Source: a virus
Strand: one strand, 5' to 3'
DNA length: 64,000 nucleotides
IMG/VR virus record: IMGVR_UViG_3300043444_000140
Coordinates: 32,001 to 96,000 of that record
The notes under the pieces were generated by a model, which made no database searches, was not told the origin of the DNA, and saw nothing but the letters and a program-made list of their open reading frames with translations. The position numbers and the translations under genes are program-made. Positions 20,227 through 36,169 of this stretch are shown here, one piece after another. Within the stretch, counting starts at the first letter, position 1. Every line of letters starts with the position of its first letter.

Positions 20227-20907
20227 ATGGCTACCGCAATATACAAATCTGCAATAATTGAAACCATTGATCGTGAGGAGATATACATCACTCCACTAAA
20301 AATCAAGTATCTAAGGTTGTTCATGGAAGAATTTGGCAATGTAAGAAAGTCTTCAAATAATGACGATGCCTTCACGTTTGTTTCTAAGTGTGCCCTGATC
20401 GCCATGAAACAGTACAAGCCAGAGATAAAGACAATTGAGCAGGTAGAAGACTCTTTTGACCTAGCAACGCTCTATACAGTTCTTGATATAGCAGCAGGCA
20501 TTAGCATGAAGAGCCCAGAAGACTCTGGAGAAAGTATCCCTGAGCAGGCTAATAGCAAAGAAAACAACTCTTGGGAAACTATAGACCTTGCTAAGTTGGA
20601 GTCAGAGGTGTTCTTGCTGGGTATTTGGAAAGACTATGAGGAACTAGAGTCATCTCTATCAATGCCAGAGTTATCGGAAACTCTCAACGCTAAACGAGAG
20701 CAGTCGTATAATGAAAAGAAGTTTATGGCATCACTCAAGGGTATTGACATTGACGGTGGTAAGCCAGAAGAGAACGCATGGGAAAAACTAAAGAACAAGG
20801 TTATGAATAAGGGTAAAGACTCTAACGACATTACTTCGCTTACTGGAGCAAGGGCTAGAAAAGCAGGCTTTGGTATCGGTATGGGCATGTCGTATGAAAA
20901 ACACTAA
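20227..20907 (+). CDS. tail assembly chaperone, long (GT-like) form
   Basis: Between tail tube and TMP; N-terminal half paralogous to 20962..21276; probably leaderless after TGGTATACT. Confidence 0.7.
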   Translation: MATAIYKSAIIETIDREEIYITPLKIKYLRLFMEEFGNVRKSSNNDDAFTFVSKCALIAMKQYKPEIKTIEQVEDSFDLATLYTVLDIAAGISMKSPEDSGESIPEQANSKENNSWETIDLAKLESEVFLLGIWKDYEELESSLSMPELSETLNAKREQSYNEKKFMASLKGIDIDGGKPEENAWEKLKNKVMNKGKDSNDITSLTGARARKAGFGIGMGMSYEKH

Positions 20908-20961
20908 TCTTAAATCTTTTGTTTATGTTATAATTAATAAGACCTTTAAAGGAGGAAACAC

Positions 20962-21276
20962 ATGGCAACAACCGTAAATGAAGCAAAGACAGTTACTATG
21001 CTTGACGGAACTAAAATTGAAATTAGACCACTAAAGATCTCTCTTCTTCGTCCATTCATGGACAAGTTCGAGAAGATCGCAGAGGTCGCAGACAATAACT
21101 CAAAATCAATGGACCTTCTTCTAGAATGTGTGGCTATTGCTATGAAGCAGTACAAGCCAGAACTAGCAGAGAAGCCAGCAGACTTGGAAGATCTTCTTGA
21201 CCTTCCAACAGTCTATGAAATTGTGGAGGAAGCATCTGGACTTAAGATTGCCCAGACTGCTGCTACACTACTGTAG
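20962..21276 (+). CDS. tail assembly chaperone, short (G-like) form
   Basis: SD AAGGAGG; own TGTTATAAT at 20926; IRPLKISLLR..IAMKQYKPE. Confidence 0.72.
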   Translation: MATTVNEAKTVTMLDGTKIEIRPLKISLLRPFMDKFEKIAEVADNNSKSMDLLLECVAIAMKQYKPELAEKPADLEDLLDLPTVYEIVEEASGLKIAQTAATLL

Positions 21277-21306: not shown

Positions 21307-24300
21307 ATGGCTGATTCCCAGACTAATATCAATATAAATATTGATACCAGTCAAGCCCTAGCAAACCTGCAGGCTTTGCAGTCTCAGATATCAGCCTTCC
21401 AAACCTCGATGGCTCGTGGCACTGCCACGCAAGCAGCAAACGCTGCCAAACTAAGACAAAACCTAATAAACGACATCAATGCAACTAAAAAGTTTGCAGC
21501 AGGTATCACAGATATCAAGACCACTACAGAGTCGTTTACAACCTCACTTGAGAAAAACAAGTTCTCAATGGGGCAATACTTTAAGTATGCTGGTGGTGCA
21601 ACAAAGAATTTCGGTAAACTATTCAAAACCGAAATGGCAACTATTGATAAGGTTGCTCGTGAACGTGTCAAAGACCTACAGACCCAATACATCCAACTAG
21701 GTCGTGACGCAAACGGTGCCATGAAGGCAATTTCCGTAAGACCACTAGTTCTTGACATGGAAAACCTGGGAACCAAAACAGCCATCGCTGCCCAGAAACA
21801 ACAGATTCTAAACCAACTCCTAAAGCAGGGGTCAACAAACATGCTCAACTGGGGTAAGAACACCCAGTGGGCAGGTCGTCAGTTGATGGTTGGTTTTACA
21901 GTTCCTCTAACTATGGCAGGTACTGCAGCAGCCAAAGCATTCATGGACATGGAGCAGGCTGCAATTAAGTTTAGCAGGGTATACGGAAGTTTTGGAACAA
22001 CTACTAAAGACGTAGACGCAATGGTAGACTCAGTAAAGAGACTAGCCTCCGAGTTTACAAAGTACGGTGTTGCGGTGTCAGACACAATGACCATGGCTGC
22101 AGATGCTGCAGCAGCAGGTAAAGAGGGCGTTGAACTATTAGAGCAGGTAACTAACGCAACCAGGCTTGCAATTCTTGGTAACGTAGATCAGCAACAAGCA
22201 CTGGAAACAACAATGTCTCTAACAAATGCGTTTGGTATTGCTGCAGAAGAACTCACAGGGAAGATCAACTTCCTTAACGCAGTTGAAAACCAAACCGTTA
22301 CCGCCATTGAAGACCTTACAATTGCTATTCCAAAGGCTGCTCCAGTTATTCAGCAACTTGGTGGAGACGTAGAAGACCTAGCATTCTTCCTAACAGCAAT
22401 GAAGGAAGGTGGAATTAACGCATCAGAAGGTGCTAACGCACTTAAGTCTGGTCTTGCATCTTTGATTAATCCAACCAACAAGGCATCTGAGTTCCTGCAG
22501 AGTTTTGGCATTAACGTAAAGAACATCGTTGAGTCAAACATGGGAGACGTTAAGGGTCTAGTTGTTGAGTTTGCATCAGCCCTCGACACCCTAGATCCAC
22601 TAAACCGTGCACGTGCCATCGAACAGATGTTTGGTAAGTTCCAGTTCTCACGTCTATCAACATTGTTCCAGAACGTAATTGACGAGGGTAGCCAGGCAAA
22701 CAAGGTTCTGGGGCTTACAAGGGCAACCTCTGAAGAATTGGCAATCCTATCTGAGCGAGAGTTGAAGAAGGTTGAAAGTTCTCCAATGTTCAAGTTCCAG
22801 AAGTCAATCGAAGACATCAAGGCAAAACTTGTTCCAATTGGAGAAGCATTCCTAAAGGCTATTACTCCTGTTATTGATTTCGTAGGAAAGTTCCTAGACG
22901 GATTTAATAAGATGTCCGAGGGTGCAAAGAGTTTCTGGATTACAACCACAGCAATCCTTGCTGGTGTTGGTCCAGCACTTCTAATGACAGTTGGTCTTGT
23001 TGCTAACGGTATTGCAAACCTTATTAAGATGTTTGCATCTATCAAGTCATTCATTAACAGAACTTCGCAAGATACGAATGCTTTGGGTGAATCAACCTCA
23101 TACATGACCGCAGAGCAGATCAGAGCAGCAGCGGTCGCTGCATCACTTGAGCAGGTACACCAAACCCTAGAACAAAGATTTACATCAGAAGCAGCCTCAG
23201 TAGACAAACTGACGCAGGCTTACGGAAGAAACATCGCAGCACAATCTGCATACAGTAACGCAAACCTTATTCCAACAACTCCAGTTAGGGGTGCAAAGAA
23301 ATTTGCAACTGGTGGATTTGTGTCTGGTCCTGGAACAGGAACGTCGGATTCAATCCCTGCCATGCTGTCAAATGGCGAAGCAGTTATCCCAGCAAAGTCA
23401 GTTGCACAAAACCCTGACCTAGTTAGAGGCTTGATTGCAGGAAACGTTAAGGGTTACTCTCAAGGTGGAATTGCTAATGGCAAGGCGGTCGTAGCCTTTG
23501 GTGCACACCAACCATTCACAGTCGCTCACGAGATGATCGCAAGAATGGGTATGGATATGGCTGCCGAGTCAGGTGCCACATTCAAGCAGTTCTCAACTGC
23601 CCAGGGTAAGTCGAAGAGATCTCTACTCACTGACGACCTAAAGAAGAAACTTATCCAGGAGTCTATTGGTATAACTCCAGACATTACCAAGAACCCATTC
23701 ACCCTGATGGAGTCCCTATCTGCACAAGGTATCAAGGACGTAACCCTACTTCTTGGTCAAGACAGAATGGCTGCTGGAGTATTCGACAAGGCAGCAGCAG
23801 ACTACGGAATTACTCTACGCAAGGTTGCTATCCCTAGAGATCCAGGATCACCATCTGGCACCGAGACAAGACTAGCAATTTCAAACAACAACACCAGAAG
23901 ATATCAGGAACTAATTGCCTCTGGTGCATCTCAGGCGACCAAGGATGAAGTATTTAAGCAGATGAAGTCTGCCATGTCAATGCCAAAGATGGCTAAGGGC
24001 GGTATCGTTTCTGGACCTGGAACAGGAACCTCAGATTCAGTTCCAACTCTGCTATCTCGTGGCGAAGCGGTAATCCCTGCTAAGTCGGTAGCAAGCAATC
24101 CAGAACTAGTAAGAGGACTGATTGCAAATAACATTCCAGGATTCAGCGAAGGCTTTGACTCGACAGGACTAATAAGTGCTGCTATGGCTAAGTATCGTGG
24201 ATCAAAGCCCGAAGTATTCCAGGCTCAGTTTGAAAGAGAACTTGAAGACATTCTCAAAACAACTGGAGATACTCAAACAATGCTACTTGAGCAACTTCAA

Positions 24301-27300
24301 AAGTACGTAGATACAACAAAGACTACTGCAAAAGCAACCATGAAGAGGTTCATGTCTCAAAACGAAGAGCAGGGGAAAAACCTAAGACCGTTATACAACA
24401 GGAAGGCTGCACAACAGGCTGGAGGAGACTTTGCTCACGTAGAAGATAGCAGGGAAGTTTCTGCACAGTATGTTCTAGACAACAGCCCAAACCTTCAGGC
24501 AGGGCACAGAGAGAGACTGGAAAGACTAGTTGCAAATAATCCAGATTATAAGGTTATGGCTGGAAGTGGCTTGGGCTTTACTCAGTCAAATGCACTTAAT
24601 CTAAAAATGAGCAGAGGGAAAAAGAGTGCTCCTGTAGAAGAATTTTTGGCAGATTTTGAATCAAGAGGTGTCGGAAAATGGACCCAGAGTGCTGAGATTG
24701 CTGGTCTTAAGATGGCAGATATTTCTGACGAACTAAAGATTTACGACGACGCACTTGCTGCTGGGGTAAGGCAATGGCAAGGAATGAATCCAACTCTTGA
24801 GTTGACCCAGCAAGAGTTTGCAAACATAGAGCGTAACGTTAGAACAACTATCGCACCACAAATACCAGTTGTCGCTCAGGCTTTTGGAGATCTTGCAAAT
24901 GAACTACATGATCTAAGATACCTTGTGGGAGAAAAGGAATTTGCAGCAACTGGAATTAAGAAGAACCCATATAGACAGTTCCCAAGAAAGGGCAAAAAAT
25001 CCGCAACTGATGCATTGTCTCCAGTGCCACTAAGCGAAATGCCACTAACACTTTCAAATGAATTTGCAGATGAAGCAGCGGTACAGGCACAGACAAAGTC
25101 TCCATCTAAGAGAACACGCAAGGTAGCAAAAGACACTGTTGATGGATACGTTCTTGAACTTGAGAATGGTGAAGCAAGAGTTGCAGAAGCAGCAGCCACA
25201 GCAGAAAAGAAGCGTGGTAAGATGGCTGGCATTGGCGACAAGGCATCTGGGTTCTTTGCAAGAAGAAAGCAACAGGCTGCACTAGACAAGCAGATGGCTG
25301 CAGAAAGAACTGCCATTGCGTCTGAGTTGCTTCTAGCAACCGATAAGGAGTACGGGGCACTTGCTGCACAAAGACAACTCTTAAACAGAAAGGTAACACT
25401 AACTGACGCAGAGTATGCTGACCTATTAAAGACCATCAACTTGATGGGGGTAAAGGAAGCAGAGATTGCTACCGACATCAAGAACAATGGTGCTGAGTCT
25501 AAGGTACTTAAAGAGAGAATTGCCCTTGCTGCAGAACGTGGCATTGCAATTAATGCTGAACAGGCTGCAAACCTAAAGGAACAAAAACTAAGTCGTCGTG
25601 AAAGACTGGGCAACTTCGTCAGGGGTGGTGCTGGAAGAATGTCTGGAATCGGCATGACAGCATCTATGGTTGCTGGCTCATTGACGATGATTCCTGGAGC
25701 AATTGGAGAAATGGCACAGAGCATTACCCCAGTAATTGGTGGCTTGTCTATGATGTCTATGATGATTCAGGGTCCAGTTAGTGCTGGTATCGTAGGACTA
25801 GTCGCTGCCATCGGTGCAGTTGTTTATGGATTTATGCAATACAACGCATCAATTGACAAGGGTATTGACAAGGCTCTTGCATTTGGAGATGCTCTAGGAA
25901 GCGGTACAAAGGCTATGCAGGGCTTGGCAGAGTTTGCTGGTAACGTAACCGCATCAGAAGTCCTAGATAGACGTAGAACTCAGGCTGTAAACCCATATCA
26001 GGTTGTAAGCGGTAAGACGACCTTTGGAGAGTCATACCTAGAGTCTGATGGTGGCAAGGCAATGGCTAAGGCTATCGGAGACCAGGCTAAGGTTTCTGGT
26101 AAGGCTGGCGTTGGTGGAAACATGAAGAACCAACTAGTATCTGCTGTTCTTTCTGGGGCATTGGGTGCAGCACAGGCTAGAAGCATTGCAGTTAATCTTG
26201 GTAGAGAACTTGGCGACGAAGAACTGGGTATTAGAGTTGCTGGAGAAATTGCAGAACTTGTGGGTCCAAATGGAGAAAACGTTCTTAAGGATGGCTTGGC
26301 TATTAGGGTCAAGATGATGCAAGAAACTAGAGGTCAGATTGGAAGTTCTGCAGCAAACCTAAACCAAATGGGTGGCTTTACAGGAACAGAAATGCTTCAG
26401 ACTGGTGGTGGCATCGCAGCAGGTGCAGGTGCTGGAGCCGTTGCAGGTGCAGTGATTGGATCATTCCTTGGACCAATTGGAACTGGTGTTGGGGCTATTG
26501 TCGGAACTATTGCAGGTGGAATCACTGGTGGTCTTCTAGGTGCTCAAGAACATGCAGAACGTCTGGGGTATCTAGCAGGAGCAACCGTATCTATTCAGTC
26601 AACTGCACTAGAGCAACAAAAGCAAATGCTAGACTCTCTAGAACTAGACTACGAGAAGCGTATTGAGGCTGCCAAGGCTGCTGGCGACACCGCAAAGGCA
26701 GATGAACTTCAGAACAAGTTGATTGCTGAAAGACAAAATCTTCTAAAGCAGAACGCACTCACCCAGCAAACAATTACTGATTCGTTTAAGAATTCACAAT
26801 ACCAGAATGAGATGATGGCTGGTGTAGACAAGGCTATCGAGAAAAAGTACAAAGACACCCCAATGGAGGACATCGCCAAGGTCGCAAGAGACAAACTAGG
26901 TGGCATCCAAAATAGAGAACAGCAATTCACCATGAAGATGCTTCTCAATACAAACGTAGATCCATTGCAGATGCTTGCCATTACAGACATCATGGGCACC
27001 GACCAATCAGCAATCTCTAAGGTTCTAAACATTAATGCAAACCTTGGTGGATCAAACCTAAACCAGGTAATGGCAATCTCTGGACTATTTACTGACCAAA
27101 ATGGCAAGCCAGCCACCCAAATTCAAAAAGACTTCATTATCAGGATGTCTTCCGTTACAGACGGAGAGCAAGCAAACAAGTTGATGACTCTATACTCAGA
27201 ACTTGGAAAGTCTGGTATGGGATGGGTAAATGCTTCGGTACTTGTTGACTTTGTATCAAAGAACCCAGCACTCGAAACCAAGTTGATGAATGATATCCAA

Positions 27301-30003
27301 GAGATCAAAGATCTTCGAGGCAATAAACTTTCAGTAGACATTGTGTCAAAGGCAAGTATCTTGAATGCAGACGAGATGGCAATCCTTAGAGATGACATGG
27401 AGTACTTCAATAGCATTGACACTAAAGAAGGACAACAACTATACTTGCAGACCGTTGCAACATATTCTGGAGTTGCAAAGATTGATGACCCAGGATTCCA
27501 GTCTTGGCTAGCAGCCGAGGGTAAGGCGTACAGGGCAGACTCTTATGGATGGATCAAGTATGTAGAGTGGCTAGCACAGAGAGCAACCAACACGAGAATT
27601 GGTGCCAATGCCTTTGCAAAGGACCCTAACGATACTCCTAGCAGCACAAGCAGTGGTCCATCAGCATCTTGGCTAGACGATTACGTTAAGGGCGTTAGAG
27701 ACCTAACAAATGCTTCTCAGGGTCTAACAGTTGGCTATGCAGCCTCGGCAAAGGCTTTAGATGCTTTTGCAAAGAAGAGTTCAAGTTTTAAGAATTCATT
27801 TAATGGTCTTGCCAATAACCTATATGCCTCTGGTATTAGCCAGGACATCATTGACAACATTCTTGGTATGCCAAAGGAAGAAGCCGAAAAAGAAATGAAG
27901 CGATTCTTTGACAAGAATGGCAAGGTAACAGAATTCCTAAAGAGGCTTCAAAAAACAGCAGCAATCACCAGAATTGCCAAAACAGTAGAGTCTGGACTGC
28001 AGTCAACAAGGTCAATCTATGACAGGGTGGATGCAACAAAGGCACTAGCCCTAGGCAATAAGAACGCAGCACTAACCTCAGAAATGCTTGCTGATTCAGA
28101 TATGGTTGTTGCCCTTGCAGGTGTAAAACTTATTGGCAACCTAAAGGATCAGAAGGATGCTGTAGAGAAGTTGACCAAGGCAAAACTTGCAAGCCTTGCT
28201 ATGGACAGACTGTCTAAGGGTAAGACTCAGAACGAAATTGATGATGCTCAAATCAAGATTGACGTTCTAGAGGCTGAAAACAACATCTACCAAAATGGAC
28301 TAGACATTATTTCCAAGAAGGCAGAAAAGATTGCAGAAGTTTACGATCGCCAAATCAAGGCACTCCAAGAGGTAAAGTCTGTAAACGACGAAATTTCAAG
28401 ACAAAAGCAGGGCGAACTAGACATTGCGGATGCACTATCTCGTGGTGACATTGGTGCTGCTGCAAAGGCTGCCCAACAACTAAGAGCACAAAATGCACAG
28501 GCTGCTGCAGAGGCACAAATGAAGGCTCTAGAAGATGCAAAGCAGAGAGCAATGGACTCAATAACTGTAGAGATTAATGGTCAAAAACTAACAAGAGCAG
28601 ACCTTGAGCAGAAGATGTATGATATCCAACTCCAGGTTCTTGAGATTAGAAAAGACGAAATTGTTCAAAACGAACTAATTCTTGCACAACAAAGACAAAG
28701 TTTAAACAGCCTTATTGCTCAAACAGCAGAGCAGATTAAGAGAAATGCTGAAGCAGGCAAGCCAATTACCCAAACCATTACTAAGGTCATTAAGACTGTC
28801 AGTTCTGGTAGTGGTGGCAATGGCGGAGGAAATCCAAATACAACTAATAACAACGATCCAAAAACAGAACTACCAACAACAATAACTCCACCAACCGCCA
28901 AGAGTTTGCTTGGTATTGGAACAAGCAAAGCAAAAGACTCGTCAGTAATTAAGAGCATGGATCCAAAAACAAGCAGTGACAAAGCCATCAAGGACTTTGG
29001 AACATTGTTTGCCGAAGGAGATAAGAGTGGGTTCACAAACTATGCAACAGATGCGATTGCCAAGCGAGCACTAAGTGCAGACAAGTATAAGGACTGGAAA
29101 GCATGGTTTGAAAAGTATTCTGCAGCAGAGACCATGGTCTCTTCGCTATACGGTACGAATGCAAAGACTGTTCTTGGAAGCATTAAAACTGGAACAAGAA
29201 ACAAAGAAAATATTAACAATATTGCTACAAGCATGTACAATGCTTATGGTGCCAAAGTAACAGGGGAGCAAAAAACCGAAGGCTTTGCAGACCTGTCTCC
29301 AGAACTTCGTGGAGCACTTAACTATCTGGTAACCCTAAATAGCAGTTTCCAGGCAAACAAGCAAGAACTTGCAACCGCTACAAGCACCATTAAGGGTTAT
29401 AAGTCAGCATATGAAAAGATTGACAGTCTTGCATCTATGAGAAAAACCTGGAGTGACGCTAAGGGTGCAGCAAAGAAGAATACAGAATATCAAAAACTAA
29501 TAGATGCTTATGGAGCATCCTTCGATTCAGATGTTCAGAAATACCTAACTTCTAGCAACTTGATGAAGCAAAATGTGTCCAACGCATATTCAACCAGGAA
29601 AGCACTGATAGACGCAAAATACAAAGAGTCAGACTTTTCTTGGATTCCAGGATACTTCTCTGGAATTGTGACACAAAACCCTGCATACAATGCAGATGTG
29701 AATAAGATTATTCCATCTAAGATTAAGTACTACTCTGTAGGAGATCTTGCAAAGGGCACCGACGTTGTCCCTGCAATGCTAACACCAGGTGAGTTTGTGG
29801 TCACTCAGCCAGCAGTTAAGAACTTTGGGGTAGACAATCTAAGGGCAATCAATAGTGGCACCTACGGCGGAGATTCAGTGTATAATTATAGTGTCAATGT
29901 AAATGTCTCTAATACAGGTGCTAATGCAAATGATATTGCCAGAACCGTAATGACACAGATTAAGCAAATTGACGCACAAAGACTTAGGAGCAACAATCTA
30001 TAA
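21307..30003 (+). CDS. tape measure protein (2898 aa) with internal cargo domains
   Basis: Follows the chaperones; TMP core (WAGRQLMVGFT, NFLNAVENQT, EGANALKSGLASL); hydrophobic segments; GPGTGTSDS/PAMLTPGEFV motifs. Confidence 0.93.
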   Translation: MADSQTNININIDTSQALANLQALQSQISAFQTSMARGTATQAANAAKLRQNLINDINATKKFAAGITDIKTTTESFTTSLEKNKFSMGQYFKYAGGATKNFGKLFKTEMATIDKVARERVKDLQTQYIQLGRDANGAMKAISVRPLVLDMENLGTKTAIAAQKQQILNQLLKQGSTNMLNWGKNTQWAGRQLMVGFTVPLTMAGTAAAKAFMDMEQAAIKFSRVYGSFGTTTKDVDAMVDSVKRLASEFTKYGVAVSDTMTMAADAAAAGKEGVELLEQVTNATRLAILGNVDQQQALETTMSLTNAFGIAAEELTGKINFLNAVENQTVTAIEDLTIAIPKAAPVIQQLGGDVEDLAFFLTAMKEGGINASEGANALKSGLASLINPTNKASEFLQSFGINVKNIVESNMGDVKGLVVEFASALDTLDPLNRARAIEQMFGKFQFSRLSTLFQNVIDEGSQANKVLGLTRATSEELAILSERELKKVESSPMFKFQKSIEDIKAKLVPIGEAFLKAITPVIDFVGKFLDGFNKMSEGAKSFWITTTAILAGVGPALLMTVGLVANGIANLIKMFASIKSFINRTSQDTNALGESTSYMTAEQIRAAAVAASLEQVHQTLEQRFTSEAASVDKLTQAYGRNIAAQSAYSNANLIPTTPVRGAKKFATGGFVSGPGTGTSDSIPAMLSNGEAVIPAKSVAQNPDLVRGLIAGNVKGYSQGGIANGKAVVAFGAHQPFTVAHEMIARMGMDMAAESGATFKQFSTAQGKSKRSLLTDDLKKKLIQESIGITPDITKNPFTLMESLSAQGIKDVTLLLGQDRMAAGVFDKAAADYGITLRKVAIPRDPGSPSGTETRLAISNNNTRRYQELIASGASQATKDEVFKQMKSAMSMPKMAKGGIVSGPGTGTSDSVPTLLSRGEAVIPAKSVASNPELVRGLIANNIPGFSEGFDSTGLISAAMAKYRGSKPEVFQAQFERELEDILKTTGDTQTMLLEQLQKYVDTTKTTAKATMKRFMSQNEEQGKNLRPLYNRKAAQQAGGDFAHVEDSREVSAQYVLDNSPNLQAGHRERLERLVANNPDYKVMAGSGLGFTQSNALNLKMSRGKKSAPVEEFLADFESRGVGKWTQSAEIAGLKMADISDELKIYDDALAAGVRQWQGMNPTLELTQQEFANIERNVRTTIAPQIPVVAQAFGDLANELHDLRYLVGEKEFAATGIKKNPYRQFPRKGKKSATDALSPVPLSEMPLTLSNEFADEAAVQAQTKSPSKRTRKVAKDTVDGYVLELENGEARVAEAAATAEKKRGKMAGIGDKASGFFARRKQQAALDKQMAAERTAIASELLLATDKEYGALAAQRQLLNRKVTLTDAEYADLLKTINLMGVKEAEIATDIKNNGAESKVLKERIALAAERGIAINAEQAANLKEQKLSRRERLGNFVRGGAGRMSGIGMTASMVAGSLTMIPGAIGEMAQSITPVIGGLSMMSMMIQGPVSAGIVGLVAAIGAVVYGFMQYNASIDKGIDKALAFGDALGSGTKAMQGLAEFAGNVTASEVLDRRRTQAVNPYQVVSGKTTFGESYLESDGGKAMAKAIGDQAKVSGKAGVGGNMKNQLVSAVLSGALGAAQARSIAVNLGRELGDEELGIRVAGEIAELVGPNGENVLKDGLAIRVKMMQETRGQIGSSAANLNQMGGFTGTEMLQTGGGIAAGAGAGAVAGAVIGSFLGPIGTGVGAIVGTIAGGITGGLLGAQEHAERLGYLAGATVSIQSTALEQQKQMLDSLELDYEKRIEAAKAAGDTAKADELQNKLIAERQNLLKQNALTQQTITDSFKNSQYQNEMMAGVDKAIEKKYKDTPMEDIAKVARDKLGGIQNREQQFTMKMLLNTNVDPLQMLAITDIMGTDQSAISKVLNINANLGGSNLNQVMAISGLFTDQNGKPATQIQKDFIIRMSSVTDGEQANKLMTLYSELGKSGMGWVNASVLVDFVSKNPALETKLMNDIQEIKDLRGNKLSVDIVSKASILNADEMAILRDDMEYFNSIDTKEGQQLYLQTVATYSGVAKIDDPGFQSWLAAEGKAYRADSYGWIKYVEWLAQRATNTRIGANAFAKDPNDTPSSTSSGPSASWLDDYVKGVRDLTNASQGLTVGYAASAKALDAFAKKSSSFKNSFNGLANNLYASGISQDIIDNILGMPKEEAEKEMKRFFDKNGKVTEFLKRLQKTAAITRIAKTVESGLQSTRSIYDRVDATKALALGNKNAALTSEMLADSDMVVALAGVKLIGNLKDQKDAVEKLTKAKLASLAMDRLSKGKTQNEIDDAQIKIDVLEAENNIYQNGLDIISKKAEKIAEVYDRQIKALQEVKSVNDEISRQKQGELDIADALSRGDIGAAAKAAQQLRAQNAQAAAEAQMKALEDAKQRAMDSITVEINGQKLTRADLEQKMYDIQLQVLEIRKDEIVQNELILAQQRQSLNSLIAQTAEQIKRNAEAGKPITQTITKVIKTVSSGSGGNGGGNPNTTNNNDPKTELPTTITPPTAKSLLGIGTSKAKDSSVIKSMDPKTSSDKAIKDFGTLFAEGDKSGFTNYATDAIAKRALSADKYKDWKAWFEKYSAAETMVSSLYGTNAKTVLGSIKTGTRNKENINNIATSMYNAYGAKVTGEQKTEGFADLSPELRGALNYLVTLNSSFQANKQELATATSTIKGYKSAYEKIDSLASMRKTWSDAKGAAKKNTEYQKLIDAYGASFDSDVQKYLTSSNLMKQNVSNAYSTRKALIDAKYKESDFSWIPGYFSGIVTQNPAYNADVNKIIPSKIKYYSVGDLAKGTDVVPAMLTPGEFVVTQPAVKNFGVDNLRAINSGTYGGDSVYNYSVNVNVSNTGANANDIARTVMTQIKQIDAQRLRSNNL
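23302..24156 (+). repeat. two 56-aa direct repeats inside the TMP (23302-23469 and 23989-24156); degenerate third copy near 29731-29859
   Basis: 41 of 56 residues identical by manual alignment. Confidence 0.9.
23482..23975 (+). other. HIGH-superfamily nucleotidyltransferase (cytidyltransferase-like) domain embedded in the TMP
   Basis: VVAFGAHQPFTVAH, L..KKKLI, GIKDVTLLLGQDR and SGTETR motifs in the canonical order. Confidence 0.75.
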
Positions 30004-30659
30004 TGACCACATCGTCTTATATGGCAGGAAGAAAGAAGTACGCCAGACCACAGGCACTACTACTCTCTGATGTTCCAGGAACCCTAACAGAGGATGGATT
30101 CTACGTACCAGTAGGATACGAGTTGGGGTCTAACGAAGATATTGTTTCTGCATCATCGGAAGACCTGGGTACATTTCTAATCCTGTCAGACGACAACCGT
30201 CAAGACATTTCTTTCAAGCCTATCCGAATCGAAAAGCGTGAGCGTATGATTAATGGTCGTATGCGTTCATACCACGTAGCAGACAAGTTGCAGATATCCA
30301 CATCTTGGGAAAGACTGCCATCAAGAAGTTTTGCATCTTCTCCAGAATTTGACGAAGAGGGAAACCCAGTTCTAAGAACCAAGTCTACTCTTGCTTCTGG
30401 AATGAGCCAGATGTTTACAACAGATGGTGGTGCAGGTGGCGTTGAGTTGCTAGACTGGTATGAAAACCACAAGGGATCGTTCTGGCTATTTCTATCTTAC
30501 GACAGACATGATAATTTTGTGGGGGACTACAAATATAACCAGTTGCACAAGTACTCAGACATTATAGAAGTATTCTTTACAGACTTCTCATACTCTGTAG
30601 AAAAAAGAGGACAGGGCTTTGACTTTTGGAACATATCCTTTAGCCTGGAAGAGGTATAG
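30003..30659 (+). CDS. distal tail (Dit-like) protein
   Basis: Directly after the TMP; RIEKRERMINGRMRSYH..W; FWNISFSLEEV. Confidence 0.65.
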   Translation: MTTSSYMAGRKKYARPQALLLSDVPGTLTEDGFYVPVGYELGSNEDIVSASSEDLGTFLILSDDNRQDISFKPIRIEKRERMINGRMRSYHVADKLQISTSWERLPSRSFASSPEFDEEGNPVLRTKSTLASGMSQMFTTDGGAGGVELLDWYENHKGSFWLFLSYDRHDNFVGDYKYNQLHKYSDIIEVFFTDFSYSVEKRGQGFDFWNISFSLEEV

Positions 30660-30661
30660 GA

Positions 30662-33600
30662 ATGTTTTATGATGCAAAACTACAAGAACACCTGGAGACA
30701 TCTTCTTCAGTAAAGAATAAATCGCTAATCGTTGCCGAATGGAACATGAATATTCCAGACAACATTTCTATGGTGGGCAACTATCGCTATAGAAAAGACT
30801 CAGCCACATACAGGTTTCTTCCAGTACAGTTTTTGGAAAATGATCCAGCCCACAAAGGTGCGACTCTATCAGACGTAGTTGTTGACAACGGATTTGACGT
30901 TGACGATAACCCAATTCAATTCTCTTCTGCAGACAAGAAAGAAAGTTTCTATTACTCGCTTGACGAGTGTCTTGGCAAGTTTCGTCCACGCTCTGGAATT
31001 AACAAGGTAAGGTTCTTTGGACAGGATTCGGGCGTACACTTTCTAAATGGAACAACAGAAAATGGCTTGGGTCAGTCATTCCTTGACACGAATAGACCAA
31101 GATACTATGCTCCAGATAAGGGAGATAAGTTTAAGTACTGGACATCATTTAGATTTGAAAGTGGACTAGAGTATGGAGTAGCCAATAAGGCTATAGCAGG
31201 ATCTGCGGAGTACAAGATTGACGATGCAGTGCCATTTGTTGTATACAAAGACAGTGTTCCTGCAAACAGGGTAGTTGTCAAGATGCAAACAAATGTGGGA
31301 ACCGTTACTGTTGGACCAGTATTGACAGAGCAGGGAACCATTCCAGACCCACTATATGGAATAAGCAACGCAACTGTGCCAGTTAGATGGAAGATTCAAG
31401 GTCTAGTAGGCAACAACTGGGAAGATCTAAAGTCCTTTGATTCTAACTCTATTAGAAGAAGCGGTAAACCAATCATCGGTGAAGATGGATATGTAGAACT
31501 ATCGTATGGATTGATTGTGCCAGAAGAATATAGGGATATCTTTATTCAGGCAGAGACATATTATACTGCATCAGTGCTACCAATTAAGGCTGTCAACGGG
31601 TACGCATACCTGATTAAGAATTCTCTAGACGATGTAGGGACATACCACATCTGGATTGATGATGCACAAGAGTACAAGACGTTTGTTCCAAAGTACGGTT
31701 GGGAAGTTGCAGAAGAGACTGTAGACAGATTCACACACTACGTAGTTGACACAACCAATCCAGACAACTTTAAGGACACTACTAATCAGTTTAGAAAGAC
31801 ATTCAGAGAGTACCAAGAACTTCGTGGAATTAGAATTGTGGTAGACTCTATGAAAAAGTTTGACTCTACCTTCGACCTAATTGAGATGTCTACACGCCTA
31901 GCAGTAAACATAACCGAAAAGACAAAGAGCGTATCTGTTAAGAAGATAGCGTCCGATCTAGGAATTAGCGGTCTTCCTGTTGGACAACTATTAGCATCTA
32001 CGGGAACGATAGAAATATTTGATTATGATGATGCTTTTAATAGAAACAACATCTATAATATTGACACAAATACAAGCGGAAGTATTATTGCAAAGTATGC
32101 AGCAAATCAAATTCAATTTAAGATTTATGATGTCACGGCAGAAGTCTTGGAAAACGGCATCTACTACGACTACTTTGTTCCCATTAAGACGCTGTACGGC
32201 GACGGATTCCCACAACTAAATGTAGAGTCTAGGTCTGTCAATATCAACCTAAGAGACATGTTCTCATACTTTGAGTCGTTTACCGCACCACAGATATTAG
32301 CCACAGACGCTTCCCTGAGTTATGCCGTATCCTTCTTGCTAGATAGCATTGGCTTTGGAAATTATGTATTTAAGAGAACTGCCTCAGAGTCAGAGCCAAT
32401 CATTCCATTCTTTTATGTAGAGCCAGATGTAACTGTTGCAGACATCCTCAACGAACTTGCCAGATCTACCCAGACCGCAATGTTCTTTGACGAGTACAAC
32501 AACTTTGTCATGATGTCAAAAAACTATATGCTCCCAAGTGCTTCCGACAGAGGGCAAGATCTCACTCTTTATGGATCAGCAGACTCTGCAAGAAATGGGG
32601 TAGAGAGAAACGCAAAAACTAAGAGCAAACTAGCGAATATTATTAGTATTGCAAGCCAAGACACGGAGGTTTACAATGATGGAAAGATTAATTTTACAAC
32701 CAGATATATTCAAAAGTCATACTCTTCAATTGAGCAGGCTAACAAACTAGACCGTGACAAGAAGTGGACGTACAAGCCTTCCTTGCTATGGGAGGTATCT
32801 CCTTCAGAGGCAACCAAGGGTCAGAACGAAGAAGATGGATCTCTATCAGTCTACTCACTTACGGCAATACCACTCAAGACCGACCTATCTGAGGCACTTC
32901 CAAAGGTAAACAACAAGGGTGAAATCATTAACAATATAATTGACTTTGGCGATGCAGCATTCTGGATGGGAAGATACGCAGGATACTTCTACGCCAATGG
33001 TGAAATTATTAGGTACGACGCAGTAGAGTATTCAGTTCTAGGTGGAGGTGCTTCAACTGCGTGGATTAGCAGCCTAGAAGAGTATCAGTACTACTTCTCA
33101 AAGATTCCTTTTAATGGCAAGATGTATCCGACAGGAAGAGTTAGAATCTATGCAAAGCCATTCTATAGCAAAGAGACAGGTCTGCCACTACAAGACAATG
33201 TCGAGGTCCATGGTCGTGGTCAATTTGGTACCTCTGTTGTAGCACACAAGGCAGGCATCTCTGGTTCAGAGTGGACTACAAATGTTTCTGGAGTCACAAT
33301 GGACGCTGACTATATCTTCAGTGCCATCGGAAACTTCCAACTCAGAGATGGGTACGTGCCATACAAGGCAACTATTCCATTGCAGTTCTTTGGATCTGGA
33401 TCAAACAACTGGACGCTATCTGGTCCAGGTACGCTGTCAAAGACATCTGGAACAGCGGTTGGGGCATCTACAGACTCTTCTGTATCAACAAACATAAGAA
33501 GCGAAAAGGAGCATAGTTACTCTTTGTCAATCGCTGGCACAAAAGTCTACGAGGTATCTCAAAAACTGAAGGACCAGTACAACGTTGACAATAAGACATT

Positions 33601-36169
33601 GCTTGGAGAAATGTACGTAAAAAATGTTCAGGCAGGAACAACTGCTGGAACGTCAAAACTGACACTGTCAGTGACACTGCCTTCGTACAGGTCTTTCTTT
33701 AAGGATACTACAACTGCAGGCAAATCACCTAGTGGATCTTTTTCTTGGAGCATTGTCGGAGCCCCCGTGACTGGTGGAAACTATGGAACAATTAAAGCAG
33801 GCAAGAAGACAGTTAAAGATAAAAAGGGCAACAACGTTATTCAGGACGACGCTACCAAGACCAAGATTTATCAGGGAGAAAGCACAACCGCTATGACCCC
33901 AACTTCTGGAACAGAAACAAGTGCAAACCTTGTTATTGACTTAGTGGTGGACAACGTATCTAGAGATACTCTAAATCCTTTCTGGCTTATCGTCGGTACA
34001 AATACAGACCCTGTTAGAACTATTCAGATAAAGCCAGGAACAGTTTCTGGAGTAATTAAGCCATTGACCACAAAAGAGGTTGCCTACAACAACAGGACAA
34101 TTCATGTCGAAGATACTAGCGGTATTAAGGTGGGACAGTCTCTAAAACTAGGTAAAAAAGAAACAATCGTCAGTGGTTCAGAGAGCAAGATCGTCAATCC
34201 ATTTGACGTAGACAATAGCAAGAACCTCAGAGTTGCCTCTATCATAGACGAAAATAAGTTTACCATTAAGCACAAGGGCGATGCCCAGGGAGGTATCTCT
34301 ACTGCCAATCTTGGCAAAGATATGGAAACATTAACGTTCGAAGAACTAAGGACTCTGACATCAAATCCAGAGATAAAGGCTGGTTCCCAGACTAACCTAA
34401 GCGGTAAGAAAAACAGTTCAACCCTAGCAGCAGAGTCAACAAGAACTGGTGTTATAAAGAACTTCCTTAGCACAAACTCTGGTGTTGACGATACTGGTGT
34501 TGCAAATCCAAACACCATTCCACAAGGAAGCGTACAGTCTTCGGCACTCATTTTGTCTGGTCCATCTTTTACGAATGCAGATGACCCAGAGAGCGTTAAC
34601 TTTATTTCCTATGCATACAAAGAACTTTCAAAAACAGCAAAGTACAAGTACTTTGGAACAAGGCTTAGACTTGTTGGTAGATATGACTACGGAAACCAGC
34701 AATCTGGAGTTGGAGAAGAAGTTTGGTACACCAACAAACAACTCTCTGCGTCTGGTCTTCCAGGCACAGGAACCACAGTAAAGGCTTCATCTGCTGGAAT
34801 GGCTGTTATGCTAAATCCAAAAACTAACAACGGATACTATTTTGAAATTGCAGCGGTATCGGATACAGGAGTTGCAAAGCAGATTGTAAAGTATTCCGAT
34901 GATGGTAAGCAAATAGAAGACCCAATCCACAACCTGCTTTTCTACAAGATGAATGCTGGTGTTGACGAAGACGGTGCCCTTCTTGACAAAGACAAGGCTA
35001 CTCCCGTAAAACTATGGGGAGGATTTACAAACATTCTAGTTGACGACGGACTGCTGACTGGTCAGGCTAGAATGACATCCACATCTATTCCAAACACAGT
35101 TTATGACATTGCTGTGGAGTATGAGATTGTAAATGAAAATCACATCAAGTTCTATCTATATGTTAATAACATTCTCGTAGGCACTGTAACAGACAAAGAG
35201 CCATTCCTCGACTCAGCAAGCAAGCCAATCATCTACAATAACATGGGGCTGTTTGTACGTGGAAAGGCTAAGGCAATGTTTGAGAACGTGTTTGCTATGG
35301 GAGCAAACCCTAGCCAAAACCGTGGCACAGATGTTGTAGCAGGTGGAGTTGTAAACGGTGTGTTTAGCGAAGACTCAATAAATCTAAATGAGTCAATGAA
35401 GAAATACGCACTAAGCGGAATTATTCCAGAAAAGTATTTGAGCGGAATTGACTCTGCAACACCTGCTAGCAGTAATCTTTATTATGACGAATTCGGAACG
35501 ATCATGCGAGAGGTAGCATACTTTAATGTAAGATACGACAAGTCCTATCCAGCACTAGTAGCCCAGATAGCACCAACATATAACAATAATAGGGGTTTCT
35601 TCGTTTCTGGATTCATCGCTGGACCATACTCTGCAGAGTTCTTGGTGTTTAACGCAACAGACTCTGTGCTATATCTTGACGGCAGTGGGGGAAACTACCT
35701 AAGAATTAACGGTATAACATTCACTCAACAGTCAACTCACGAACTAACAGTTGATGAATACTTTGCTCTTAGAAGCAGTTTGTCAGATCCACAAACTCCA
35801 GTAGGTTCCGACCTTGTAAAATCTCCACTAAAAGAAGCACAAGAATACAACGTGATTAGAAACAGTAGATCTGCTTATGGCAAAAAAGAATTTACGCTAG
35901 ACTCAAGATATATCCAGAGTCAGGACTACGCAAACGGATTGATGGGATGGCTAATTGGCAAGATCATGAAGCCAAGAAAATCAGTTGGAGTGACCGTATT
36001 TTCTATGCCAACCATCCAACTTGGAGACATTGTGTCGATTGATATGGTAGACTCAGATGGCAAAGACATGGTTGCACCAAGTTCGTCAAGATTTGTGGTT
36101 TACCAGATTGACTATGAGAAGTCGTCTGAGGGACCGTCAATGTCTGTTTATCTAAGTGAGGTAGTATAG
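30662..36169 (+). CDS. large minor tail/tail-tip (Tal/hub-like) protein
   Basis: 1835 aa after Dit; C-terminal IQLGDIVSID..VYQIDY hub-like motif. Confidence 0.7.
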   Translation: MFYDAKLQEHLETSSSVKNKSLIVAEWNMNIPDNISMVGNYRYRKDSATYRFLPVQFLENDPAHKGATLSDVVVDNGFDVDDNPIQFSSADKKESFYYSLDECLGKFRPRSGINKVRFFGQDSGVHFLNGTTENGLGQSFLDTNRPRYYAPDKGDKFKYWTSFRFESGLEYGVANKAIAGSAEYKIDDAVPFVVYKDSVPANRVVVKMQTNVGTVTVGPVLTEQGTIPDPLYGISNATVPVRWKIQGLVGNNWEDLKSFDSNSIRRSGKPIIGEDGYVELSYGLIVPEEYRDIFIQAETYYTASVLPIKAVNGYAYLIKNSLDDVGTYHIWIDDAQEYKTFVPKYGWEVAEETVDRFTHYVVDTTNPDNFKDTTNQFRKTFREYQELRGIRIVVDSMKKFDSTFDLIEMSTRLAVNITEKTKSVSVKKIASDLGISGLPVGQLLASTGTIEIFDYDDAFNRNNIYNIDTNTSGSIIAKYAANQIQFKIYDVTAEVLENGIYYDYFVPIKTLYGDGFPQLNVESRSVNINLRDMFSYFESFTAPQILATDASLSYAVSFLLDSIGFGNYVFKRTASESEPIIPFFYVEPDVTVADILNELARSTQTAMFFDEYNNFVMMSKNYMLPSASDRGQDLTLYGSADSARNGVERNAKTKSKLANIISIASQDTEVYNDGKINFTTRYIQKSYSSIEQANKLDRDKKWTYKPSLLWEVSPSEATKGQNEEDGSLSVYSLTAIPLKTDLSEALPKVNNKGEIINNIIDFGDAAFWMGRYAGYFYANGEIIRYDAVEYSVLGGGASTAWISSLEEYQYYFSKIPFNGKMYPTGRVRIYAKPFYSKETGLPLQDNVEVHGRGQFGTSVVAHKAGISGSEWTTNVSGVTMDADYIFSAIGNFQLRDGYVPYKATIPLQFFGSGSNNWTLSGPGTLSKTSGTAVGASTDSSVSTNIRSEKEHSYSLSIAGTKVYEVSQKLKDQYNVDNKTLLGEMYVKNVQAGTTAGTSKLTLSVTLPSYRSFFKDTTTAGKSPSGSFSWSIVGAPVTGGNYGTIKAGKKTVKDKKGNNVIQDDATKTKIYQGESTTAMTPTSGTETSANLVIDLVVDNVSRDTLNPFWLIVGTNTDPVRTIQIKPGTVSGVIKPLTTKEVAYNNRTIHVEDTSGIKVGQSLKLGKKETIVSGSESKIVNPFDVDNSKNLRVASIIDENKFTIKHKGDAQGGISTANLGKDMETLTFEELRTLTSNPEIKAGSQTNLSGKKNSSTLAAESTRTGVIKNFLSTNSGVDDTGVANPNTIPQGSVQSSALILSGPSFTNADDPESVNFISYAYKELSKTAKYKYFGTRLRLVGRYDYGNQQSGVGEEVWYTNKQLSASGLPGTGTTVKASSAGMAVMLNPKTNNGYYFEIAAVSDTGVAKQIVKYSDDGKQIEDPIHNLLFYKMNAGVDEDGALLDKDKATPVKLWGGFTNILVDDGLLTGQARMTSTSIPNTVYDIAVEYEIVNENHIKFYLYVNNILVGTVTDKEPFLDSASKPIIYNNMGLFVRGKAKAMFENVFAMGANPSQNRGTDVVAGGVVNGVFSEDSINLNESMKKYALSGIIPEKYLSGIDSATPASSNLYYDEFGTIMREVAYFNVRYDKSYPALVAQIAPTYNNNRGFFVSGFIAGPYSAEFLVFNATDSVLYLDGSGGNYLRINGITFTQQSTHELTVDEYFALRSSLSDPQTPVGSDLVKSPLKEAQEYNVIRNSRSAYGKKEFTLDSRYIQSQDYANGLMGWLIGKIMKPRKSVGVTVFSMPTIQLGDIVSIDMVDSDGKDMVAPSSSRFVVYQIDYEKSSEGPSMSVYLSEVV

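What the first reader, a model, noticed from the sequence alone, without database searches (positions are those of the whole stretch)
23302..24156. 56-aa repeated module delimits cargo cassettes in the TMP: a polyprotein delivery system?
Seen: FATGGFVSGPGTGTSDSIPAMLSNGEAVIPAKSVAQNPDLVRGLIAGNVKGYSQGG and MAKGGIVSGPGTGTSDSVPTLLSRGEAVIPAKSVASNPELVRGLIANNIPGFSEGF (41/56 identical) exactly bracket the nucleotidyltransferase. Their DNA differs at many synonymous sites, implying protein-level selection rather than a recent duplication. Each copy starts and ends with a [F/Y/M]-x-x-G motif (FATGG, YSQGG, MAKGG, FSEGF). A third degenerate copy (YSVGD..GTDVVPAMLTPGEFVV) is near the C-terminus. A single such motif is common in TMPs; the module+cargo+module+cargo layout is the unusual part. 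Inference: the modules are processing or autoproteolysis sites and recombination anchors that let effectors be swapped in and released.
Basis: partly seen in the sequence, partly recalled or inferred. Interest (0 to 1): 0.8.

Follow-up and report, generated by a model that had tools for sequence, protein, structure and literature searches.

The report
Tape measure protein with enzyme cassettes
The 2,898-residue tail "ruler" protein of this uncultured 107-kb phage repeats three times the short junction module that phage lambda's ruler carries once beside its cutting site, and between these copies sit swappable domains, one a conserved nucleotidyltransferase, so the tail probably carries ready-made enzymes into the host, though neither cutting nor delivery has been shown.

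Summary
The tape measure protein (TMP) is window 21307-30003. It holds two 56-aa modules (23302-23469 and 23989-24156). They are 41/56 identical, with synonymous sites saturated (dS about 1.5, dN 0.24). They exactly bracket a 173-aa domain, and a third, degenerate copy lies at 29731-29886.

The bracketed domain is a cytidylyltransferase-like (HxGH-superfamily) nucleotidyltransferase. This rests on a confident AlphaFold core, Foldseek matches to PPAT, NMNAT and phage cytidylyltransferases, and two active-site motifs kept in 43 homologues.

The module is not special to this phage:
- It matches lambda gpH 733-781, next to the unmapped gpH*/gpHC cleavage.
- It matches the JBD30 "hook" and two sites in Douge gp16.
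- It hits 22,385 protein clusters and occurs 2-11 times in each of the 236 long TMPs fetched for their module matches.

The cassette idea holds. TMPs with 61-97% identical N-termini carry different domains in different orders. Collinear homology ends at the edge of module 1 in 62 of 114.

Cleavage or autoproteolysis is supported only by analogy with lambda and T5.

The scan has found the same theme on other DNA before. I found no paper describing it.

The parts
21307..30003 (+). Tape measure protein gene, 2898 aa, one uninterrupted ORF
   Evidence: ORF list and translation. PF10145 at aa 249-443, E 4.6e-25. TIGR01760 at aa 199-555. PHROG TMP families. Lies between the tail chaperone genes and the distal tail and hub genes.
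22933..23043 (+). Hydrophobic, probably membrane-inserting segment (aa 543-579) upstream of module 1
   Evidence: Read directly from the translation. Inferred by composition only. Its position matches the hydrophobic stretch that precedes the processed end of T5 pb2 (PMC10038345).
23302..23469 (+). Junction module copy 1 (aa 666-721). Starts KK|FATGG and ends KGYSQGG.
   Evidence: 82-109 bits. Matches Douge gp16 and the JBD30 TMP. Same module type as lambda gpH 733-781.
23470..23988 (+). Cargo 1: cytidylyltransferase-like nucleotidyltransferase domain (aa 722-894). Motifs GAHQPFTVAH (nt 23500-23532) and SGTETR (nt 23854-23871).
   Evidence: AlphaFold core pLDDT 83-95. Foldseek hits to PPAT, NMNAT and FAD synthetase and to phage cytidylyltransferases. 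Homologue P0035 hits PF01467 at the aligned region. Motifs conserved in 43 homologues.
23989..24156 (+). Junction module copy 2 (aa 895-950). Starts PK|MAKGG and ends PGFSEGF.
   Evidence: 69-106 bits.
24157..25056 (+). Cargo 2: conserved globular domain of unknown fold (aa 951-1250; confident core about aa 1040-1205)
   Evidence: AlphaFold core pLDDT 75-96. No convincing fold match (Foldseek; VIA-align best Z 5.5). In most of the other TMPs that match it, it begins within about 10-30 residues after a module, whichever copy that is. Only 35-67% identical to the closest relative, whose N-terminus is 97% identical.
25639..26559 (+). Conserved hydrophobic region (aa 1445-1512) and glycine zipper (aa 1706-1751) within the conserved core aa 1440-2450
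   Evidence: PF13488 at aa 1706-1751. Conservation profile across relatives. Hydrophobic stretch read from the translation.
28777..29730 (+). Cargo 3: 318-aa segment (aa 2491-2808) with no homologue among the 236 TMPs; ends exactly at module 3
   Evidence: blastp finds only self. 10-42% identity to P0003, whose flanks are 72-97% identical.
29731..29886 (+). Junction module copy 3, degenerate (aa 2809-2860; YSVGD...GTDVVPAMLTPGEFVV)
   Evidence: 55-81 bits against module profiles. Sits in the canonical position: 38 residues remain to the C-terminus, against a median of 68 and a minimum of 36 in 236 TMPs.
29887..30003 (+). C-terminal 38 residues plus stop: probable hub-docking end
   Evidence: Inference by position. 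The last 33-42 residues of the JBD30, T5 and Douge TMPs form the trimeric coil seated in the baseplate hub.
20227..21276 (+). Two tail assembly chaperone-like genes (20227-20907 and 20962-21276) just upstream
   Evidence: Both match phrog_10504; the longer one also matches phrog_10474.
30003..36169 (+). Downstream tail tip genes: a 218-aa gene in the distal-tail-protein position (30003-30659) and an 1835-aa minor tail / hub protein (30662-36169)
   Evidence: phrog_10359 minor tail protein, E 1.8e-54, for the large gene. Role of the small gene inferred from position.

Best explanation
This is a giant siphophage tape measure protein built as a carrier of swappable domains.

Shown:
- The 56-aa repeat is the conserved junction module that ordinary TMPs carry once, about 40-120 residues before their C-terminus (lambda gpH 733-781, JBD30 gp46 1019-1066). 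Here it occurs three times.
- Copies 1 and 2 fence a nucleotidyltransferase of the HxGH (cytidylyltransferase-like) superfamily, and its active-site motifs are under purifying selection.
- In the TMP family that shares this N-terminus, the stretch after module 1 holds different domains in different orders. These are the nucleotidyltransferase (NTase), a HAD acid phosphatase and at least three unknown families. Homology between relatives breaks at module edges.

Inferred:
- TMPs leave the tail before the DNA, so these domains reach the host envelope or cytoplasm as ready-made proteins, 3-6 copies per virion.
- By analogy with lambda (gpH to gpH* plus gpHC) and T5 (pb2 to pb2* plus pb2C, which carries a reported muralytic motif), the chain is probably cut at or just before each module after tail assembly. 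Each released piece would then be a module plus its downstream cargo.
- The enzyme most likely adenylylates or cytidylylates a small phosphorylated metabolite. Its substrate is unknown.
For: - Module identity and spread.
- Position next to known processing sites. The lambda module lies at 733-781. gpH* of about 78 kDa corresponds to residues 1 to about 710-732. The review of the lambda data in PMC12617516 says the site and the protease are unknown. T5 is cut after R1127, directly before AEGGMMYPG...GEHGTEVV (PMC10038345; sequence).
- Basic residues are enriched just before FAxGG: 29% at -1 and 48% at -1/-2, against a 12% background. All ten close module copies are preceded by K or R.
- NTase: AlphaFold pLDDT 83-95. 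PDB matches to PPAT (TM 0.66-0.70) and NMNAT. Phage cytidylyltransferases match with TM up to 0.78 and rmsd 2.6-2.8. PF01467 scores 27.5 bits at the homologous region of P0035. G[AK]HQPFTx[AG]H and S[GA]TxxR are kept in 43 homologues of 38-86% identity.
- Cassettes. 246 short inter-module segments fall into 132 clusters. PF03767 lies between modules 1 and 2 in P0060 and P0098. NTase and family cl0 occur in both orders on 61-97% identical N-termini. Collinear homology ends at aa 720-729 in 62 of 114 relatives. The identity profile against the closest relative is mosaic, with breaks at the end of module 2 and the start of module 3. Cargo 2 begins shortly after a module in most of the other TMPs that match it.
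- This NTase clade was found only inside long TMPs: no hits among proteins of 95-303 aa or below 1593 aa.
Against: - No direct evidence of cleavage exists for this protein or for any multi-module TMP.
- The T5 stretch after the cut does not match the module profile, so that link is by eye only.
- The lambda site is unmapped and could lie 20-40 residues upstream of the module.
- No protease domain is detectable in this TMP.
- Modules are absent between adjacent cargos in many relatives, and some NTase-bearing TMPs have no second module. Fencing is therefore frequent but not obligatory.
- The modules are low-confidence in the monomer model and are unresolved in the Douge, JBD30 and lambda virion maps.
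- This sequence itself gives no PF01467 hit, and its motif is TxAH rather than HxGH.
- Three to six enzyme molecules per infection is a small dose.
Confidence: 0.5

Rival explanations
1. The modules are structural elements that are never cut. They would be short hooks or clamps that hold the TMP chains in register, or that anchor the ejected TMP to the opened baseplate hub. The fenced domains would stay tethered to the channel-forming TMP and act, if at all, at the entry site.
For: The JBD30 authors predicted residues 1022-1066, which is the module, as a hook of two helices and a beta-hairpin, and proposed that it anchors the TMP in the baseplate (PMC11445458). In T5 the new C-terminus of pb2* lodges between hub subunits. 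The module core is very strongly conserved (GPGTGTSDSIPAxLSxGE), more like a binding interface than a simple protease site. It has low confidence as a monomer, as expected for a segment that folds on a partner.
Against: A hub has only three crevices, which does not explain 3-11 modules per chain. The modules are not resolved in any virion map. The JBD30 proposal itself includes a cleavage right after the module. The two experimentally known TMP cleavages both lie beside the module or a look-alike of it.
Confidence: 0.3
2. The bracket is only a by-product of recombination. Because the module is the one conserved island in a fast-evolving protein, illegitimate or homologous exchange between module copies inserts foreign segments and duplicates the module. 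The internal copies would then have no function of their own.
For: Homology breakpoints sit at module edges. Domain order is shuffled among close relatives.
Against: The two copies have diverged to saturation at synonymous sites yet keep 73% protein identity (dN/dS about 0.16). Internal copies are conserved across thousands of clusters. Functionless scars would decay.
Confidence: 0.1
3. The nucleotidyltransferase is not a delivered effector. It would work in the producing cell (for example on the unassembled TMP or on a tail component), or it is a folded spacer that only adds tail length.
For: No substrate or target is known. The enzyme needs a nucleoside triphosphate, which is absent from the periplasm. 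Nothing else in the 107-kb genome points to an NAD pathway (no Nampt).
Against: The active-site motifs are invariant in 43 homologues while the rest of the domain diverges to 38%, which argues against a mere spacer. The same site holds unrelated enzymes in relatives, which fits interchangeable payloads better than an assembly role.
Confidence: 0.1

Closest known systems
Lambda tape measure gpH and its maturation to gpH* plus gpHC
   Same: My module profile hits gpH 733-781 (FATGGFTG...HRGEFVF...GYATGG; i-E 7e-7), inside the region modelled by TIGR01541 (472-813). gpH* of about 78 kDa corresponds to a cut at about 710-732, just before the module. Copy 3 of this TMP sits in the equivalent place.
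   Different: Lambda has one module and no enzyme. This TMP has three modules, with globular domains between them. Pfam's PF09718 covers 627-701 and not the module. The lambda cut site and protease are still unknown.
T5 tape measure pb2 (pb2* plus pb2C)
   Same: It is cut after tail assembly (after R1127). This frees a C-terminal piece that carries a reported muralytic motif and is expelled first into the periplasm (PMC10038345). The residues after the cut (AEGGMMYPG..GEHGTEVV) resemble a module start that follows a basic residue.
   Different: There is no significant profile match. T5 has a single site, and its cargo is cell-wall directed, not a nucleotidyltransferase.
JBD30 gp46 'hook' and Douge gp16
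   Same: Direct sequence matches of the module: 8rk3 at 1019-1058 and 8zdo at 964-1013 and 1412-1462. Douge shows that a cultured phage can have two copies.
   Different: The modules are unresolved in both maps.
TMPs with embedded peptidoglycan hydrolases (TM4, T5, and Gordonia phage Mutzi here)
   Same: An enzyme domain is carried inside the ruler. In Mutzi the single module (1178-1225) is followed directly by a sequence that, by eye, looks like an LAS-type metallopeptidase (HxxxxxxD ... HxH).
   Different: Those cargos attack the cell wall. Here the cargo is a nucleotide-handling enzyme, and relatives carry a HAD phosphatase.
Polyvalent proteins of phages and conjugative elements (Iyer et al. 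2017, PMC5512222)
   Same: They are giant injected proteins that string together unrelated, shuffled effector domains, some of which act on nucleotides.
   Different: That survey never mentions tape measure proteins. Its carriers are head-packaged or conjugation proteins, thought to be processed by zincin-like peptidase domains. No such domain is found here.
Phage 'cytitidyltransferase' proteins of cyanomyophages (for example P-HM2 E3ST13, S-PM2)
   Same: These are the best structural matches to the cargo (TM 0.77, rmsd 2.6 over 184 columns, 23% identity).
   Different: They are free-standing proteins of unknown function. The clade here was found only inside TMPs.

Membership tests
TP901-type phage tail tape measure protein (PF10145 / TIGR01760) | Match to the family core model above the curated cut-off | tested here: met
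   PF10145 scores 89.1 bits against a cut-off of 33.2. TIGR01760 scores 111.7 bits against 28.8.
TP901-type phage tail tape measure protein (PF10145 / TIGR01760) | Gene position between the tail chaperone genes and the distal tail / hub genes | tested here: met
   The neighbours are annotated.
Lambda gpH-type C-terminal junction module (part of TIGR01541) | Sequence similarity of the 55-aa unit to gpH 733-781 | tested here: met
   The profile built from 1005 modules hits gpH 733-781 (15.1 bits, i-E 7e-7 for a single-sequence search). TIGR01541 spans 472-813 of gpH but gives no hit on this TMP.
Lambda gpH-type C-terminal junction module (part of TIGR01541) | Single copy 40-120 residues from the C-terminus | tested here: not met
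   Copy 3 fits this, with 38 residues remaining. Copies 1 and 2 are internal, at aa 666 and 895. This TMP is therefore a multiplied variant.
Lambda gpH-type C-terminal junction module (part of TIGR01541) | Proteolytic cleavage next to the module | not testable with these tools
   Needs virion proteomics. Even in lambda the site is unmapped.
Cytidylyltransferase-like / HxGH nucleotidyltransferase superfamily (PF01467) | Rossmann-like alpha/beta fold of the superfamily | tested here: met
   The AlphaFold core has pLDDT 83-95. All top PDB matches are PPAT, NMNAT or FAD synthetase (probability 1.00, TM to target 0.66-0.70). There are 51 viral matches at E<=1e-3, mostly annotated as cytidylyltransferase-like.
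Cytidylyltransferase-like / HxGH nucleotidyltransferase superfamily (PF01467) | (H/T)xGH motif after strand 1 | tested here: inconclusive
   The motif here is PFTVAH (TxAH) at aa 736-741, at the strand-1/helix junction. Thr in the first position is as in PPAT (from my own knowledge). Gly is replaced by Ala in 41 of 43 homologues, and two have TxGH.
Cytidylyltransferase-like / HxGH nucleotidyltransferase superfamily (PF01467) | ISxTxxR-type motif before the C-terminal helix | tested here: met
   SGTETR lies at aa 850-855. S[GA]TxxR is kept in all aligned homologues.
Cytidylyltransferase-like / HxGH nucleotidyltransferase superfamily (PF01467) | Direct match to the Pfam model | tested here: inconclusive
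   This sequence gives no hit, even at E<=10. Homologues of 45-46% identity hit PF01467 at the aligned region with 25-28 bits, against a cut-off of 21.
Polyvalent proteins (Iyer et al. 2017) | Several unrelated effector-type domains in one giant protein, with shuffled architectures among relatives | tested here: met
   The NTase, two further globular segments, and shuffling with a HAD phosphatase and unknown families in relatives.
Polyvalent proteins (Iyer et al. 2017) | Associated processing peptidase domain (zincin-like MPTase or similar) | tested here: not met
   No peptidase family is detected in this TMP by Pfam or NCBIfam.
Polyvalent proteins (Iyer et al. 2017) | Transfer into the recipient cell with the DNA | not testable with these tools
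   Inferred from the general behaviour of TMPs.

The most novel reading that the evidence does not exclude
The junction module is a true processing signal, self-cleaving or read by a conserved protease. Giant TMPs would then be polyproteins that release a changeable set of virion-borne enzymes into the host ahead of the DNA. Here that would be a nucleotidyltransferase, and in relatives a HAD phosphatase. These enzymes might act on nucleotide or NAD-type metabolites or immune signals before any phage gene is expressed. The same module would then explain the long-unmapped lambda gpH to gpH* cleavage.
Probability: 0.25. Interest if true: 0.85.

Novelty: new variant of a known kind. Interest (0 to 1): 0.62.

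Why it matters
Tape measure proteins are usually treated as rulers that also form the DNA conduit, sometimes with a cell-wall enzyme attached. Here, and in thousands of uncultured long-tailed phages, the ruler appears to double as a modular carrier of non-lytic enzymes that are exchanged between relatives at one conserved 55-residue module. If these domains are delivered, phages have a route for pre-made effectors that act before transcription. That would be relevant to counter-defence and to host takeover.

The module also gives a concrete, mutable candidate for the lambda gpH cleavage determinant. The site and protease of that cleavage have been unknown since the 1980s (PMC12617516).

The module is widespread yet has no domain model of its own in Pfam, so a dedicated model would improve TMP annotation.

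Tried and rejected
- A metagenome scan for loci with the NTase found none. The viral-contig scan returned only 12 loci, mostly matches to the module alone.
- Megablast against phage records found no close relative.
- No family in Pfam matches either module or the cargo directly.
- The T5 pb2 profile search gave no hit, so the T5 resemblance stays an eye-level observation.
- The extended tblastn matches in Gordonia phage Mutzi and Brevundimonas phage Bambus were not NTase homologues. Those TMPs carry a probable metallopeptidase (by eye) and an SLT domain.
- Cargo 2: Foldseek and VIA-align gave no convincing fold. The language-model lead to the polyvalent-protein domain LPD39 (score 0.82, below the useful range) was not backed by any Pfam hit.
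- The NAD-salvage idea found no support in the genome: no Nampt and no second PF01467 gene.
- Searches for stand-alone or shorter proteins carrying this NTase found none, so there is no natural split gene to use as evidence for independent polypeptides.
- Families cl0 and cl6 of the relatives gave no Pfam or PDB sequence match.
- Literature searches for nucleotidyltransferase, adenylyltransferase or acid phosphatase inside TMPs found nothing relevant.
Full report
**What is there**

Window 21307-30003 (+) is one 2898-codon ORF.
- It is a TP901-type tape measure protein (TMP): PF10145 at aa 249-443, TIGR01760 at aa 199-555, and several PHROG TMP families.
- It lies between two tail-chaperone-like genes and the distal-tail and hub genes.
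- The genome is a 107-kb IMG/VR virus record estimated 99% complete.

- Module 1 (aa 666-721) and module 2 (aa 895-950) share 41/56 residues and 113/168 bases.
- 24 of the 41 identical residues use different codons.
- pS is 0.65 (dS about 1.5, saturated) and dN is 0.24. The best chance match in 100 shuffles was 15/56.
- The two copies are therefore an old duplication kept by selection on the protein.
- They abut the intervening 173 residues with no spacer.
- A third, degenerate copy lies at aa 2809-2860, 38 residues from the end.

**What the module is**

It is a very common but unnamed piece of TMPs.
- tblastn finds it in 413 phage records, almost always in the annotated TMP.
- A profile of the three copies hits 22,385 clusters at 50% identity (4,168 at E<=1e-10), with up to 11 copies in proteins of up to 7,872 aa.
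- All 236 long TMPs fetched have 2-11 copies. These proteins were picked by their module-profile or region scores, so the sample favours multi-copy proteins. The first copy is typically near residue 666 and the last a median of 68 residues from the C-terminus.
- Among proteins with solved structures, it matches Douge gp16 twice (964-1013 and 1412-1462) and the JBD30 TMP once (1019-1058). It is not resolved in either map.
- The JBD30 authors predicted this stretch as a "hook". They speculated that the TMP is cut right after it and that the hook anchors the TMP in the baseplate (PMC11445458).
- My profile also hits lambda gpH 733-781. TIGR01541 spans this region (472-813). Pfam's PF09718 stops at 701.
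- No Pfam model matches the module itself.

**Link to processing**

- Lambda gpH is cut after tail assembly into gpH* (about 78 kDa) and gpHC (about 14 kDa). The site and the protease are unknown (PMC12617516).
- Calculated masses put the cut at about residues 710-732, at or just before the module.
- T5 pb2 is cut after R1127, and the freed pb2C carries a motif reported to have muralytic activity (PMC10038345).
- The residues after the T5 cut (AEGGMMYPG...GEHGTEVV) look like a module start after a basic residue. My profile does not detect them, so this is suggestive only.
- Across modules, K or R is enriched just before [FY]AxGG: 29% at -1 and 48% at -1/-2, against a 12% background. All ten close copies follow K or R.
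- None of this shows cleavage in this protein.

**Cargo 1**

- With a 19-sequence alignment, AlphaFold gives a confident Rossmann-like core (pLDDT 83-95). Both modules are low-confidence.
- The top PDB matches are all HxGH-superfamily adenylyltransferases: PPAT (TM 0.66-0.70), NMNAT and FAD synthetase.
- The best viral matches are the free-standing "cytitidyltransferases" of cyanophages (TM 0.77, rmsd 2.6).
- The sequence itself gives no PF01467 hit. Homologues of 45-46% identity hit PF01467 at the aligned region above the cut-off.
- G[AK]HQPFTx[AG]H and S[GA]TxxR are kept in 43 homologues down to 38% identity.
- I therefore read it as an active nucleotidyltransferase of unknown substrate.
- Close relatives of this clade were found only inside long TMPs.

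**Cassettes**

- Relatives whose first 640 residues are 61-97% identical to this TMP carry different content after module 1.
- The content includes the nucleotidyltransferase (NTase), a roughly 295-aa family cl0, a family cl6, a HAD acid phosphatase (PF03767) and the cargo-2 family.
- These occur in varied orders. NTase and cl0 appear in both orders.
- The N-terminal collinear homology to this TMP ends at aa 720-729 in 62 of 114 relatives; module 1 ends at aa 721. Smaller peaks lie at 890-899 and 940-959.
- Against the closest relative (P0003), identity along the protein is:

| Residues | Identity |
|---|---|
| 1-640 | 95-100% |
| modules and NTase | 67-90% |
| right after module 2 | 35-67% |
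| 1241-2480 | 72-97% |
| 2481-2800 | 10-42% |
| from module 3 on | 62-85% |

- Cargo 2 begins within about 10-30 residues of a module in most of the other TMPs that match it, whichever copy that is.
- Over all 236 TMPs, 246 short inter-module segments fall into 132 clusters.
- The fencing is not strict. Many relatives place the NTase directly beside another domain, and some have no second module.

**Other segments**

- Cargo 2 (aa 951-1250) has a confident alpha/beta core but no convincing known fold.
- aa 2491-2808 has no homologue in the set.
- aa 1440-2450 is the conserved core, with a hydrophobic region, a glycine zipper and a widely conserved coil.

**Reading**

The best-supported account is a ruler that also carries swappable domains, with the lambda-type junction module multiplied at cassette borders. 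Delivery into the host follows from what TMPs do in general. Cleavage at the modules is an analogy and has about even odds or less.

The main rival is an uncut structural hook or clamp.

I found no paper that describes the repetition or non-lytic enzyme cargos in TMPs.

**Earlier findings of this scan**

The scan has reported the same module-and-cassette theme on other genomes, with the same caveats. I reached the lambda, T5 and JBD30 links before reading those notes. I also checked one of their statements, that TIGR01541 covers the module, and it holds.

Noticed in passing
window 20227-21276: Two adjacent tail-chaperone-like genes share the same N-terminal family (phrog_10504). The first, longer one adds a second family (phrog_10474). 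This may replace the usual G/GT frameshift arrangement.
   Followed up: partly
window 24157-25056: The segment right after module 2 is a conserved globular domain (AlphaFold core pLDDT 75-96) with no convincing match in the PDB. There is a weak language-model lead to the polyvalent-protein domain LPD39 (score 0.82).
   Followed up: yes
window 28777-29730: A 318-aa segment ending exactly at module 3 has no homologue in 236 related TMPs. This includes the relative whose N-terminus is 97% identical.
   Followed up: partly
relatives P0043, P0075, P0056 and others, aa about 720-1015: The commonest domain after module 1 in this TMP family (cl0, 39 members) has no Pfam or PDB sequence match. Its consensus (GLGGVY ... 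VFVKP ... DKDLxxxN ... DvGPAG) looks protein-kinase-like by eye. This is untested.
   Followed up: partly
relatives P0060 (aa 1030-1154) and P0098 (aa 1015-1148): A HAD-superfamily IIIB acid phosphatase domain (PF03767) sits between modules 1 and 2 of TMPs whose N-termini are 63-82% identical to this one. P0098 also has a peptidoglycan-binding domain just before its last module.
   Followed up: partly
L013 (phage T5) pb2, residues 1120-1150: The mapped pb2 cleavage (after R1127) is followed by AEGGMMYPG..GEHGTEVV. This resembles a degenerate junction-module start, and it overlaps the stretch previously read as a zinc carboxypeptidase motif.
   Followed up: partly
L015 (Gordonia phage Mutzi) TMP, aa 1178-1400: A single junction module is followed directly by a GFAGGG linker and a stretch with an LAS-type metallopeptidase pattern (HxxxxxxD ... 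HxH) by eye. This would be a cultured example of a module followed by enzyme cargo.
   Followed up: partly
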